64,000 bases of DNA, taken from assembly GCA_951406725.2 (NCBI GenBank), contig OX597814.1:172236001-172300000 (forward strand), in the 5' to 3' direction. A program made the position numbers and the translations under genes. How positions within the stretch are numbered: the first letter of the stretch is position 1; every line of letters begins with the position of its first letter. Below are positions 742 through 48,173 of this stretch, piece by piece. The stretch is from Octopus vulgaris (taxonomy: Eukaryota). The notes beneath the pieces were generated by a model, which saw nothing but the letters and a program-made list of their open reading frames with translations, made no database searches and had not been told where the DNA came from.

Positions 742-841
742 GAGCTTCTACAGGACTAGTACTGTTTCATTCAAGAGAAATCTTCAGGAAGCTTCTACAG
801 GACTAGTACTGTTTCATTCAAGAGAAATCTTCAGGAAGCTC
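742..841 (-). ncRNA. Two tandem type I hammerhead ribozymes (742-794, 789-841)
   Basis: Minus strand reads gagcttc CUGAAGA uuuc-ucuu-gaau GAAA cag-uacuaguc-cug UA gaagcuu, repeated at a 47-nt period. Confidence 0.75.
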
Positions 842-842
842 T

Positions 843-897
843 GGAGCTTCCTGAAGATTTCTCTTGAATGAAACAGTTCTAGTCCTGTAGAAGCTCC
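843..897 (+). ncRNA. Type I hammerhead ribozyme
   Basis: Stem I ggagcttc/gaagctcc, core CTGAAGA, stem II tttc/gaat (U.U first pair), GAAA, stem III cag/ctg, GUA cleavage triplet. Confidence 0.8.
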
Positions 898-9747: not shown

Positions 9748-10123
9748 GGATGTATATATACATATAGATGTAGGTACGTACATATATATATGTATGTATG
9801 CATATATTTTATTTATTAAATTGTTATTATATGACTGAGCGCCCTCGCGTCGTTTCGTTTCTTTCCTCCAAGTAAGTTTATATATATATATGTATTATGT
9901 ATTTGTGTCTCTCTGTGTCCCCACATTATCGCTTGACAACCTATGTTGGTGTGTTTACGTCCAGGTAACTTAGCGGTTCAGCAAAAGAGACCGATAGAAT
10001 AAGTACTAGGCTTACAAAGAATAAGTCCCGGGGTCGATTTGTTCGATTAAAGGCGGTACTCTAATATGCCCGCTGTCAAATGAATGAAACAAGTAAAATA
10101 ATAAAATAGTACACCCCCCACAC

Positions 10124-10201
<78 letters not shown>

Positions 10202-10204
<3 letters not shown>

Positions 10205-10570
10205 GGTATGTAGAAAAATACAACATGGACAAGAACGTATAACTCTTAGAAGACGATACAATAAACACGGACAGGACATTCGAAACCCTCAGTCTTCAGT
10301 CAAGAACCGGATCATCGTAGTAATTTCGGCTGATTAATCTTGAGATTACTAGATCACGGCCAGTCCTCCAAGAAAAACTAAGCAACGAGCATTAGAAAAA
10401 CTAAGCTGGGAGCGTAGATTTCCTGGAAGAAGGATCGAATGCATACGGACACCAGGACAGCAAAAGGGACGAATATAAAAAAACAAAAAAATAATGGAAT
10501 ACAGAAACATGAAATACAGAAGCATTAACGGTGAAAACAACAACAAGTGTCTTACGACTGATAACAAGCA
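10202..10570 (-). mobile_element. (TA)n-anchored repeat family (second copy at 28140-28500 +)
   Basis: Shares gtaatctcaagattaatcagccgaaatt..gatgatccggttcttga with 28318-28366. Both copies abut (TA)n at the same end. Confidence 0.6.
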
Positions 10571-11138
10571 AACAAATTTTTTCTCTGGCGCAAGGAAAGG
10601 AGCCTTATCGGCGATGCCTATAGCGGCGGACGAAAAACAACGATGTTAACACGACGCTGGTCAGAAGCTGAAAGGCAGATTTCGGCCAGCAGTCACGTGA
10701 CAGAGAAGAGAGAAAAGAAAAGAAAGAGAAGCAACGGAAGAGAGAGAGAGAGGAGAGAGAGAGAGCGGAGAGACAAACGCAACAAAGAGAGAGAAGAGAG
10801 AGAAAGAAGGAATCAGAGAGGAGAAGGGATGGGTGTCGAAGATTGACCTGTGAGTGCAGAGCGAGACAAAGAATTAGGAGGGTAGTGGAAGATTAGACCA
10901 AAGAATAAATATTAGACGGGCTTCTTTCAGTTTCCGTCCATCAAATACATTCACAAGGCTTTGGTCGGACCGAAGCTACAGTAGAAGGTATCTGCCTAAG
11001 GTGTCACGTAGTGAGGCTGAACCTGGAACCATGTGGTTGGGATGAAAACGTCTTACTACACAGTCACGCCCATGCTTCGACACATCCACACCTAACCAAA
11101 AATATATACACGATGATCGAGTCCGGAGCGTTTTGGAT

Positions 11139-11537
11139 CAGAGGTCTTTTCGATGAAGTTTGGCCTGGGAGTTAAAGTAAAACAATACCAACCCTTGAAA
11201 AATTGAACAAAATGACAAAATATGAAAGTCCACACGGGCATGAAAATTTTGTTGACTTATCACATTCTAACCCACACTAAACTCTGCTACCATATGAACG
11301 ATCACACGCAAAACGACAATACACGTCTATAAAAACTCAGAGGTCTGTTCGATGAAGTTTGACTTGGGAGTTAAAGTAAAACAATATCAACCCCTGAAAA
11401 ATCGAACAAAATGACAAAATATGAAAGTCCACACGGGCATGAAAATTTTGTTGACTTATCACATTCTAACCCACACTAAACTTTGCTACCATATGAACGA
11501 TCACACTCAAAACGACAATACACGTCTATAAAAACTA
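11139..11537 (+). repeat. 199-bp direct tandem duplication
   Basis: 11139-11337 is repeated at 11338-11537 with few substitutions. Confidence 0.85.
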
Positions 11538-27071: not shown

Positions 27072-27228
27072 TACAGGACACCACAAATAAACGTAGAACA
27101 CAACGAGAAACGAAAACATAAAAACAAACAAGGAAACGGACTTTTTTTAACAACGAAAAAACAGAGTACAAGACAAACAATACAAGGAATATTTCCCGTC
27201 ATCAGCTGCCCCTGGTTCGACTCAATGC

Positions 27229-27282
<54 letters not shown>

Positions 27283-28496
27283 ATGGAGAGAGAGAGAGAG
27301 AAGAGAAAGAGATGAAGAGAGGAAGATATATAGTTTGGCCAGTGGCCTGTATTTGAACAGCACATACAAATGCGGTTATATAAAATAACATACATCATGA
27401 TTTATTCAAACTTTGTCCACCTTCAGAGGATGTATCATTATTGTCCAATAACAAAAAGAGGATAGGATTTGGAATTGTAGAGCACATTATATTATTTATT
27501 TAATGATTGTTATAGAGTCTCCAATAGAAAAGAATATGACAAACACAGAAATAAGAGATTCATAATTTGTGTCTGGTGTCTGTGGTCAGAATAGGTTATA
27601 GATATATTGAAGACCGATGTGGACGTGGTTACCAAAGACACGAGGATGGTGTCGATGGTATGTTGGAGCTGGAGCGGCATGGACAACCGATTGAGACCCT
27701 AGGCAACTCCCTTTAACCTCCAATAATACACTGAGAATGAAGATGTTCACCGGAAATAGAAATGCGAACTCAAAACGAAACAAAACAAATATCAGAATGG
27801 AAAGACAACACACGACAAATAAATACATTCATGCCTGAAGAAAACTGAGTCTTGCCACCGTACTTTCCATCCAACTCAGCAACACTCAACCTAAGAGAAG
27901 GAAGAATATATACATAAAGGTAGGAATTGATAACCAAATGCCAAATTACGCCCCCTCTTTTTCTCTCCCCCTTCCTGAATCAACTTCTATCTATCAATCT
28001 TGCTCTCTCTCTTTTTCTGTATATATGTGTGTATATGTGTGTATGTGTGTGTGTGAATCTATATAACATTCAAATGATAATTATTATTATTATTAATATA
28101 GCATATTTGTGTGCGTATAGCAAATACATACACATCGAAAGACGCCTGTTGTTATGTCATGTTATTATCATCATTATTGTTTTTTTGTATTATTTTTGAA
28201 TTTATATTCGTGTAACATCGTCCGTTTTTCCGTCCTTCTTTCGTATACATTCGATGCTTTTTTCCAAGGAATTTAATGCTCTTAGCTTAGTTTTTCCTTG
28301 GGGCTGTCCAGACTGGAGTAATCTCAAGATTAATCAGCCGAAATTGCGAGGATGATCCGGTTCTTGATTGAAGATAAAAGGCTTTGAATGACCCGGCCGT
28401 GTTTTTTTGTATCGTCTATCTAGATGTTTTGATATCCCTTTTAGTATCACCTAGTTGTCCGGATGTTTTGCGTTCTTGTCCCATTTTGTATTTTAT

Positions 28497-28588
<92 letters not shown>

Positions 28589-42137: not shown

Positions 42138-42774
42138 ATATATATACCATATATATATATATATACCCCACCTCTAACCCCACCCTCCACCTACCCACAA
42201 CCCCCACTCTACCCCAACCCCCAGCCGAATCCACACCCACCTGTGCTTTCCCCTTTGTCGCCTCCCCCACCTCCCCACAACATCACACCACACTACACTA
42301 CACCATACAACATTACACATCACGTCACAACACACCACCCACACACCCATCCCCACATCTCCACACCCACACATACATACACACACACGTCCAGACCACC
42401 AGCCCTCTTTCACACGCACATACATACTCTCTTATACACACACGCACCTTTGTATTGGGGGGCACCTTCGTACTGGAAGTCACTTGACCCTCTTATCTCC
42501 CCTACTGTCCCCCGCGTGTCTGACCACTGTCCGAAGTCAGGACGCCATGATAGATCGTTAGCTCCTACACGCATTTTTTTCTCTCCTTGTTTCTCTCCTT
42601 GTTTTTCTTTTTTGTATCTTTCTGTAGAAGAGCGTAGGCTCGAAACGTAAAATACTTTTTCTATTTCTATTCCTGAGCGCTATACTAATACATTTGTTTG
42701 TTTGTACTCCACCTCCCTTCGTCTTTTGTTTATTTTCGTAAACTTTCCCTTTATATATATATATATATATATAT

Positions 42775-43680
42775 ATTTATCAATATAGGGTAGCAAAAAA
42801 ATTCAAGAAGAATTCAAGAAAAATTTTCTGCAACCAGCGGTCAAGTGAGAAAATAGAAATAGTCACAGACTATATAATATATTCAACAAAGTATTAAGGA
42901 ATGACCCTAACAGGTCTTTCAACTCACTTGAAAAGAGCAGCCAAACTCAAACCGCAAAAATAGTAGTAATTCTGAAAGCTAAAGGAGAAATAAAAACAAT
43001 TTAATTTAATTTAATTAAGTTCGATTGCGTAAAAATTGTTGAAACCTTGCAGGGTACAAAGTTGAAAGGGATAAATGTTTTTATTTCTCCTTTAGCTTTC
43101 AGAATTACTACTATTTTTGCGGTTTGAGTTTGGCTGCTCTTTTCAAGTGAGTTGAAAGACCTGTTAGGGTCGTTCCTTAATACTTTGTTGAATATATTAT
43201 ATAGTCTGTGACTATTTCTATTTTCTCACTTGACCGCTGGTTGCAGAAAATTTTTCTTGAATTTTTCTTGAATTTTTTTGCTACCCTATATTGATAAATT
43301 AATAATTTTTGACTAATTCTGAAATTGTATCAGCAGTTTATATTTGCTGCTGAGTAGTTGGCGCGGTTACGTTGGATTTCGAAAAATTAGGATATATACA
43401 CTCGGGACTTCAGTGGTGTCGCCTCGTGGGTATATGTTCTCCTTTTCTTTTGGTGACTTTGCTGATGAAACAAGCTAATCGCAAACGGATTTAATTTAAT
43501 TTAATTAAGTTCGATTGCGTAAAAATTGTTGAAACCTTGCAGGGTACAAAGTTGAAAGGGATAAATGTTTTTATTTCTCCTTTAGCTTTCAGAATTACTA
43601 CTATTTTTGCGGTTTGAGTTTGGCTGCTCTTTTCAAGTGAGTTGAAAGACCTGTTAGGGTCATTCCTTAATACTTTGTTG
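42775..43680. mobile_element. Retrozyme/pLTR-like element: 490-nt unit, ~1.4 copies, plus inverted 5' arm, in (TA)n
   Basis: 42999-43190 repeats at 43489-43680, and 42775-42998 is the reverse complement of ~43077-43299. Confidence 0.8.
43456..43552 (+). ncRNA. Canonical type I hammerhead ribozyme spanning the repeat junction
   Basis: actttg CTGATGA aacaa...ttgtt GAAA cct-tgca-ggg TA caaagt. Confidence 0.85.
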
Positions 43681-46934: not shown

Positions 46935-47691
46935 ATTTCTTAATTTGGATTTGGAAACACTAAAAGAAGGAACTTTACCTATCAGCGAACTTGTCGTTTC
47001 AGATGAACCACTCCAACTAAACAGTGTCAACAAATTCAAAATGCGCAGGCGTAAAATTCTGCACTCCCCATTCCACCCACGTGGTCTATCTAGCAAACAT
47101 TATATTTTAACCGCGAGAACCGAGGCAGTATGACCGAGAGAAATGAATTATAATATCAACAATTGAGGGTAAAATTAATTAATTAATCAATTTCACCAAG
47201 TGTTCAGTATGTAAAAGGACCATTTAAGGCGAATTCAAAATATTACATTATATAATTAGGGCTAAGTAAAATAAAATTACTTTGCCACATACTGAACTTA
47301 GTAGAAATAGCAGCCAAAAAAAATTTTTCTTAGCATTTCTACTACTTAAAGAAAATTTCTCTCAGATAAGCCCTAATTATATAATTTTGAATTCGCCTTA
47401 AATTATCCTTTTACATACTGAACACTTGGTGAAATTGATTAATTAATTAATTTTACCCTCAATTGTTGATATTATAATTAATTTCTCTCGGTCATACTGC
47501 CTCGGTTCTCGCGGTTAAAATATAATGTTTGCTAGATAGACCACGTGGGTGGAATGGGGAGTGCAGAATTTTACGCCTGCGCATTTTGAATTTGTTGACA
47601 CTGTTTAGTTGGAGTGGTTCATCTGAAACGACAAGTTCGCTGATAGGTAAAGTTCCTTCTTTTTAGTGTTTCCAAATCCAAATTAAGAAAT

Positions 47692-47754
47692 TTTGAGCTG
47701 ACGAAAGAAATGCTGATTTTATTTGGCTAATCTTGAAACGTTGACGTACTCAAA
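47692..47754 (+). ncRNA. Canonical type I hammerhead ribozyme (right arm)
   Basis: tttgag CTGACGA aaga...tctt GAAA cgt-tg-acg TA ctcaaa. Confidence 0.87.
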
Positions 47755-48034
47755 CGATCTATGTACTTGTGATATTTTTCTGTATTTACCCCCAAACCTT
47801 CGTGAGCTGTCTGGAGTAAACATTATTTGAGAGAAATTTTCTTTAAGTAGTAGAAATGCTAAGAAAAAATTTTTTTTGGCTGCTATTTCTACTAAGTTCA
47901 GTATGTGGCAAAGTAATTTTATTTTACTAAGCCCTAATTATATAATGTAATATTTTGAATTCGCCTTAAATGGTCCTTTTACATACTGAACACTTGGTGA
48001 AATTGATTAATTAATTAATTTTACCCTCAATTGT

Positions 48035-48173
<139 letters not shown>

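What the first reader, a model, noticed from the sequence alone, without database searches (positions are those of the whole stretch)
10289..10349. All hammerhead parts present but in scrambled (non type I/II/III) order
Seen on the minus strand: guaa-UC-ucaaga, a 4-nt linker, ucagcc-GAAA-uuac, a linker, then ucuuga-CUGAAGA-cuga. Stem I (ucaaga/ucuuga), stem III (A-uuac/guaa-U, AUC site) and stem II (cuga/ucag, with a CC bulge) can all pair. The segment order is the reverse of the cyclic order in known HHR types, which would need a pseudoknotted fold linking the ends of stems I and II. Established: these stems lie side by side in the active HHR fold. The second copy (28318-28374+) keeps stems I and III (auugc, G.U-compatible) but has UUGAAGA and has lost stem II. 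Inference: possibly an undescribed hammerhead topology or a trans-assembling multimer. Standard searches would miss it.
Basis: inference. Interest (0 to 1): 0.75.

Follow-up and report, generated by a model that had tools for sequence, protein, structure and literature searches.

The report
Split-core hammerhead in Penelope-like retroelement
A young, very common jumping repeat in this animal genome ends in a predicted self-cutting RNA (a hammerhead) whose parts come in a knotted order and whose catalytic core appears to be opened and re-closed by two extra helices, a layout also visible in the tails of Naiad retrotransposons that were reported to lack such an RNA; cutting has not been tested.

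Summary
Site-GAAA-CUGAnGA is the published type-SGC order (Eckert 2023), reported only from metatranscriptomes. Here the strand before GAAA pairs not with bases after CUGAAGA but with a strand 20-23 nt upstream of the cleavage site. This holds in five repeat subfamilies of this genome: 14 of 14 positions of stems I-III pair in all five, and 13 change pair type. The core is therefore opened between A9 and G10.1, a link Eckert assumed unbreakable, and is likely re-closed by two extra helices (P4, P5). The host is a young non-coding ~870-nt Penelope-like unit (tandem copies, (TA)n tail). By eye, 10 of 54 published Naiad consensus sequences show this fold and 8 show type CSG (lower bounds), although Naiads were reported to lack canonical hammerheads. 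The window copy has a private stem II mismatch; copy 2 keeps stem II. Cleavage, RNA strand and the mobilising enzyme are not shown. This scan reached the same reading earlier on other DNA (8 notes, unchecked, seen only after my analysis).

The parts
10201..10906 (-). 5'-truncated copy (~705 nt of a ~870-nt unit) of a young non-coding Penelope-like repeat, subfamily A; 3' end at 10201 followed by (TA)n
   Evidence: no ORF over 76 aa in the unit
10429..10441 (-). P4 5' strand; pairs with the tail that follows A9
   Evidence: duplex -17.1 kcal/mol in A, -16.3 in B1, -11.1 in B2, -8.5 in D, only -4.5 in C; coordinates
10366..10428 (-). P5 hairpin (arms 10428-10419 and 10375-10366), ending directly before G10.1
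   Evidence: MFE of the leader ends 0-1 nt before G10.1 in A, B1, B2, D; not recovered by MFE in C
10360..10365 (-). stem II 5' strand, G10.1 = 10365; private mismatch at 10364 in this copy
10352..10359 (-). 5' strand of the stem I-stem II interaction helix (equivalent of helix 'I' of type SGC/CSG)
   Evidence: duplex -7.6 kcal/mol in A
10344..10351 (-). stem III 3' strand with U16.1 (10345) and C17 (10344); predicted cut between 10344 and 10343
   Evidence: cut site by analogy with the hammerhead core
10338..10343 (-). stem I strand after the site
10328..10333 (-). stem II 3' strand, C11.1 = 10328, reached by a 4-nt linker from stem I
10318..10327 (-). GAAA (10327-10324) and stem III 5' strand
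10307..10313 (-). 3' strand of the interaction helix
10293..10305 (-). stem I 5' strand (10305-10300) and CUGAAGA core (10299-10293)
10277..10290 (-). P4 3' strand (tail after A9)
28122..28510 (+). second copy, older subfamily B1; stem II 5' strand 28302-28306 intact, core with private C3-to-U change at 28368
27122..27232 (-). 5'-truncated copy of family D (same fold, unrelated sequence); keeps only the 3' half of the ribozyme
   Evidence: E 1.5e-31

Best explanation
This is a predicted self-cleaving hammerhead ribozyme at the 3' end of a non-coding Penelope-like repeat, likely a non-autonomous Naiad-type element, whose strands run stem II 5' strand - site - GAAA - CUGAAGA, so that the core appears opened between A9 and G10.1 and is likely re-closed by a junction of two extra helices (P4, P5). 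Shown by sequence comparison: the core letters, stems I, II and III with pair-type changes across subfamilies, the I-II interaction helix, P4 and P5, tandem units, a fixed 3' end with (TA)n and variable 5' truncation. Inferred: transcripts of head-to-tail units would be cut after AUC (between 10344 and 10343) into unit-length RNAs. These would have to be re-ligated into circles, or stay partly uncut, because genomic copies start about 143 nt downstream of the site, run through it, and reach four units in a row. A Penelope-like reverse transcriptase and GIY-YIG nuclease acting in trans would insert the copies into (TA)n. The fold can only close after the last strand (core plus P4 tail) is transcribed. 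The window copy is probably impaired by its stem II mismatch; the subfamily master is intact.
For: Five subfamily majorities (A 29, B1 29, B2 16, C 30, D 24 copies): 5 of 5 stem II, 5 of 5 stem I and 4 of 4 stem III positions pair in all five; 13 of 14 show two or three pair types and only G10.1-C11.1 is invariant. G10.1-to-U16.1 spacing is 20, 20, 20, 20, 23 nt. Upstream stem II stacks at -12.4, -10.0, -14.2, -10.3, -8.7 kcal/mol against best downstream options of -6.4, -8.8, none, none, -4.1. A split-core descriptor gave 4 hits in 664 kb (window plus 60 unselected 10-kb stretches) and 0 per shuffled set at score >=14 (0.2 at >=12; 5 shuffles); 3 of the 4 were a sequence-unrelated family, D. 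Family C was found from a published Naiad 3' end by block order alone and still has the upstream helix. The young subfamily keeps the core in 29 of 29 copies. Head-to-tail junctions occur in 20 of 30 A loci. By eye, 10 of 54 published Naiad consensus sequences show the same fold, most with P4 starting right after A9 and a hairpin right before G10.1.
Against: No cleavage data. Helix registers were chosen by script as the best pairing, so counts lean towards the structure; only three lineages (A/B, C, D) are independent, and D was found with a descriptor that demands the upstream helix. Per copy, the chance of an equally stable upstream helix is only 0.02-0.11 in shuffles, and 0.57 for the window copy. 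P4 and P5 are weak or not recovered by folding in family C. Stems I, II and III cross each other, so no folding program here could score the whole fold; plain MFE folds of the region show other structures, including one that sequesters the core. A, B and D share no sequence with the Naiad-linked family C beyond the fold. No intact Naiad frame was found (longest open frame 263 aa among 150 hits; 174 aa among 44 hits), so the enzyme that moved the very young subfamily A is unidentified. Subfamily A lacks the kink-turn pattern seen in B, C and D (0 of 29).
Confidence: 0.78

Rival explanations
1. The fold is real and conserved but does not cut on its own: it needs the element's protein, or serves as a binding or packaging signal derived from a hammerhead.
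For: The hammerhead of an anole Penelope-like element cut only with the element's protein and was not needed for insertion in vitro (PMC11167929, passages). Genomic copies run through the site. No nicked A9/G10.1 precedent was found.
Against: CUGAnGA, GAAA and UH (H = C, A or U, never G in the majorities) are kept across lineages whose stems share no sequence. Five type-SGC and two type-CSG RNAs with the same strand cycle cut without protein.
Confidence: 0.13
2. It is an ordinary type-SGC hammerhead whose stem II forms downstream, after a 5-nt insert behind A9 (AGCC with GGYU), or in the reader's bulged register.
For: The downstream 4-bp helix exists in A and B1 and may stand in for the damaged upstream strand in the window copy. 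HRIMA-1 has a 1-nt insert at this place.
Against: No downstream partner of 3 bp or more in B2 or C; weaker than the upstream helix in A, B1 and D; the same bases form P4.
Confidence: 0.07
3. Chance arrangement or decayed remnant of a canonical type I hammerhead in a repeat.
For: A GAAU follows the core by 11 nt, which looks like a decayed type I core; the genome holds canonical type I motifs in other Penelope-like families.
Against: 0 descriptor hits in shuffles; compensatory changes in all three stems; no stem I partner lies downstream of the core.
Confidence: 0.02

Closest known systems
Type-SGC hammerhead (HRIMA-1 and SGC variants; Eckert et al. 2023, PMC10085705; read parts 3-5 of 8 of the main text, keyword passages, supplement parts 1 and 8 of 42)
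   Same: Order site - GAAA - CUGAnGA; short linker (4 nt here, typically 3) from stem I to stem II; three mutually crossing stems; a helix joining the far sides of stems I and II.
   Different: In SGC the stem II strand follows CUGAnGA within 0-2 nt; here it lies 5' of the whole ribozyme, with P4 and P5 at the gap. SGC was reported only from metatranscriptomes, none in genomes of known organisms. Their search pattern demanded CUGAUGA(U)G and a linker of at most 15 nt, which this motif fails.
Type-CSG hammerhead (Eckert et al. 2023; two metagenome sequences)
   Same: Same reversed strand cycle; stem II 5' strand precedes the site block, as here.
   Different: In CSG the CUGAnGA strand is joined directly in front of the stem II strand; here it is moved to the 3' end. 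By eye, 8 published Naiad consensus sequences, mostly from nematodes, are plain CSG.
Naiad Penelope-like elements (Craig et al. 2021, PMC8557442; keyword passages, supplement part 1 of 59 and keyword hits)
   Same: (TA)n targets, tandem and inverted insertions, 3'-terminal position of the motif; family C of this genome matches the published octopus Naiad 3' end by eye.
   Different: The paper reports no canonical hammerhead in Naiads, only 10 'HHR_core' and 8 'HHR_half_core' labels. The window element has no ORF and no sequence likeness to family C beyond the fold.
Animal non-LTR retrozymes (bioRxiv 10.64898/2026.07.22.740005, read part 1 of 5; PMC7229834 seen as search listing only)
   Same: Non-coding tandem units with one hammerhead each, proposed to be non-autonomous derivatives of Penelope-like elements.
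   Different: Retrozymes are defined and searched for by type I hammerheads; this unit carries none of that order.

Membership tests
Hammerhead ribozyme | CUGAnGA, GAAA and UH core letters | tested here: met
   intact in 29/29 A, 23/29 B1, 14/16 B2, 26/30 C (C copies were picked by a pattern holding part of the core), 21/24 D
Hammerhead ribozyme | Stems I, II, III around the core, with G10.1-C11.1 and covariation | tested here: met
   14 of 14 positions paired in five majorities, 13 with changed pair type; not an R-scape test
Hammerhead ribozyme | Site-specific self-cleavage | not testable with these tools
   only assembled contigs were served
Hammerhead types I/II/III | Cyclic order C-G-S without pseudoknot | tested here: not met
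   order is S-G-C; no Rfam match
Type-SGC hammerhead | Block order S-G-C with short stem I-stem II linker | tested here: met
Type-SGC hammerhead | Helix joining the far sides of stems I and II | tested here: met
   duplexes of -4.6 to -11.4 kcal/mol in the seven copies examined
Type-SGC hammerhead | Block C uninterrupted: stem II strand follows CUGAnGA within 0-2 nt | tested here: not met
   best partner lies 20-23 nt upstream of the site; no downstream partner in B2 or C
Penelope-like element, non-autonomous | Tandem or partial-tandem units, fixed 3' end, 5' truncation, (TA)n target | tested here: met
   20 of 30 A loci with head-to-tail junction
Naiad clade | ORF with N-terminal GIY-YIG and C-terminal reverse transcriptase | tested here: not met
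   no ORF in units A, B, D; no intact Naiad frame found
Naiad clade | Descent of the window element from a Naiad 3' end | tested here: inconclusive
   shared fold only; family C lies downstream of decayed coding fragments in 16 of 30 loci, which Pfam did not name, and matches the published consensus by eye
Non-LTR retrozyme | Type I hammerhead in every tandem unit | tested here: not met
Non-LTR retrozyme | Circular RNA expressed | not testable with these tools
   contigs only

The most novel reading that the evidence does not exclude
A seventh, active hammerhead wiring exists in which the A9-G10.1 backbone link is replaced by a four-way junction (P4, P5, stem II, core). It is the resident ribozyme of Naiad retrotransposons from ctenophores to cephalopods, with nematode Naiads using type CSG, and sits in tens of thousands of copies in this genome. 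Naiads would then not lack hammerheads, and the reversed-cycle hammerheads would be common in animal genomes.
Probability: 0.65. Interest if true: 0.82.

Novelty: new variant of a known kind. Interest (0 to 1): 0.7.

Why it matters
It would overturn two statements in print. Eckert et al. 2023 assumed that the CUGAnGA block cannot be interrupted and found no SGC or CSG hammerhead in the genome of a known organism. Craig et al. 2021 concluded that Naiads lack canonical hammerheads and that this absence does not hinder, and may help, their spread. If the fold cuts, a ribozyme is kept across nearly all nuclease-bearing Penelope-like clades, which argues for a role in their life cycle. It also gives a natural opening at A9/G10.1 for ribozyme engineering and a cheap, decisive gel test. 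Nine family members in 400 kb of distant unselected stretches extrapolate to tens of thousands of copies in this genome.

Tried and rejected
Rfam: no hammerhead call; the 150 listed of 328 window matches were microsatellite hairpins, and 0 matches in 10200-10520. Plain MFE folding of 68-121 nt gave z-scores of -0.63 to 0.40, uninformative for three crossing stems. A MAFFT alignment of 12 copies put stem II strands out of register and two B2 rows began too late, so no covariance model or pair count was built on it. Sequencing runs: 20 of 24 listed runs hold the stretch. Contigs of four runs guessed to be RNA cover much of the unit and some bridge the predicted site, but contigs show no strand, ends, joints or level: no evidence either way on expression or cutting. 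Search for the autonomous partner: the 30 fetched of 150 GIY-YIG loci, mostly a young element with a 781-aa frame, share no sequence with A or B; two Naiad-fragment searches found only decayed frames; Pfam named none of 6 fragments. A 3' splice site just before G10.1 in family D is not conserved in the D2 subfamily or in B and C. A descriptor hit in L081 was dropped because its stems I and II use the same bases. The sequence look-up in earlier findings returned nothing. My recalled expansion of the name HRIMA was wrong and was corrected from the paper. Literature searches that found no description of the split form: (open-licence papers and bioRxiv only; subscription papers and bioRxiv supplements not seen).

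Full report
Observation. A descriptor allowing all six orders of the three hammerhead blocks found this one hit in the window and none in 20 shuffles. Rfam does not see it.

The order is known. Site - GAAA - CUGAnGA is type SGC of Eckert et al. 2023 (PMC10085705), shown there to cut in vitro. That paper found SGC only in metatranscriptomes, none in genomes of known organisms. It states the assumption that CUGAnGA and its adjacent stem II strand must follow each other directly. Its pattern required CUGAUGA(U)G and a linker of at most 15 nt.

The host element. The motif lies in a young repeat: 1699 first-look candidates, the 40 scored being 99-100% identical. Copies have one fixed 3' end followed by (TA)n, variable 5' ends and head-to-tail units of about 850-895 nt, with the junction in 20 of 30 loci and four units in a row at one place. 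The unit has no ORF. This matches descriptions of non-autonomous Penelope-like elements. The second window copy belongs to an older subfamily, B1 (5098 candidates). The host is probably an octopus; this is inferred from the match of family C to published octopus consensus sequences.

The five bases after the core differ between A and B1, so the bulged cuga/ucag helix is not conserved. While looking for the autonomous partner I read Craig et al. 2021 (PMC8557442, passages): Naiad elements lack canonical hammerheads, but 8 are labelled as having core halves 35-50 nt apart. The 3' end of their octopus consensus shows the same S-G-C order. A short pattern from it has 273 exact matches in this genome and 0 for the reversed control (family C). 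In C, and then in A and B, the six bases before GAAA pair with a strand starting 20 nt upstream of U16.1. A descriptor for this split layout found 4 hits in 664 kb of window plus unselected stretches and none in shuffles at score 14 or more; three were a new family, D (2338 candidates). A profile search added subfamily B2 and a D2 subfamily.

Comparative evidence. In the majority sequences of A, B1, B2, C and D, all 14 scored positions of stems I, II and III pair in all five, and 13 change pair type; only G10.1-C11.1 is fixed. Spacing from G10.1 to the site is 20, 20, 20, 20 and 23 nt. The upstream helix is more stable than any downstream option in A, B1 and D, and no downstream option exists in B2 or C. 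The strand after the upstream stem II pairs with the strand before stem I, which is the interaction helix of type SGC. A hairpin, P5, ends 0-1 nt before G10.1 in four of five families, and the tail after A9 pairs with the strand before that hairpin, P4.

The two window copies. Copy 2 keeps stem II but has a private C3-to-U change. Both are likely weakened; the A master is intact.

Published Naiads, by eye only. I saw keyword hits in the supplement of Craig et al.: CTGATGA places 1-58 of 62, CTGAGGA 1-15 of 25, CTGACGA 1-15 of 23, CCGAAAC 1-30 of 30 and the first five places of five other terms; CTGAAGA was not searched alone. Ten of the 54 Naiad records show the split form: one in the ctenophore part of the file, one in the Clytia part, three Acropora (one with mismatches), two in part 12, one in the ostracod part and two Octopus. 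Eight show plain type CSG with an extra pseudoknot helix: two Pristionchus, three Nippostrongylus, two in part 15 and one in part 16. Names of records not followed by a visible header are inferred from file order. Several spider, ostracod, cephalopod and hemichordate hits I could not parse. These counts are lower bounds and were not computed.

How it likely works. SGC, CSG and GCS are openings of one reversed strand cycle; this RNA opens the same cycle inside the core, at A9/G10.1, and P4 with P5 would hold A9 near stem II. Transcripts of tandem units would be cut after AUC into monomers. Because genomic copies begin about 143 nt downstream of the site and run through it, the template is inferred to be circular or partly uncut. 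Internal initiation of reverse transcription and insertion at AT-rich DNA were shown for an anole Penelope-like element, whose hammerhead needed the protein and was dispensable for insertion in vitro (PMC11167929, passages). No intact Naiad was found here; a young C-terminal GIY-YIG element with a 781-aa frame exists but shares no sequence with A, so the mobilising enzyme is open.

Novelty. Eight searches of open-licence papers and bioRxiv found no description of a split-core hammerhead or of permuted hammerheads in Naiads; subscription papers and bioRxiv supplements were not visible. PMC544870 was read in two passages and only shows engineered linkers from A9 to G12. This scan's own notes hold eight similar readings on other DNA; I opened them after stating my reading, and they are not independent support. 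Verdict: a new variant of a known ribozyme class, well supported by sequence comparison, untested for cutting.

Noticed in passing
published Naiad consensus records, supplement of PMC8557442 parts 13-16: Eight records, mostly nematode, show a plain type-CSG hammerhead with an extra pseudoknot helix; type CSG was known from two metagenome sequences only. Read by eye.
   Followed up: partly
window 743-886: A 47-nt tandem and an 88-nt near-perfect palindrome whose arms read, by eye, as a canonical-order minimal type I hammerhead of another Penelope-like family (same motif in L087); Rfam called it only as a microRNA-like hairpin below threshold.
   Followed up: no
L067, L072, L084, L090 and others: Young autonomous Penelope-like element with a 781-aa frame and C-terminal GIY-YIG in many identical copies; its 3' end shows by eye a minimal type I hammerhead with U3 and A8 in place of C3 and G8, after a run of short repeats.
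   Followed up: partly
window 27122-27232 (-) and about 9800-9890: A truncated family D copy, and a fragment resembling the 5' part of the D unit beside the A copy.
   Followed up: partly
L032, L048, L215: Inverted 5'-truncated copies joined to B and D elements, the arrangement described for Penelope-like insertions.
   Followed up: no
window 42770-43304 and 46962-48040: Long inverted repeats of 176-280 nt at 98-99% complementarity next to (TA)n runs.
   Followed up: no
window 11138-11536: Two 199-nt tandem copies, 96% alike.
   Followed up: no
window 10376-10418 (-): Subfamily A has a ~22-nt internal duplication in the loop of P5 relative to B.
   Followed up: no
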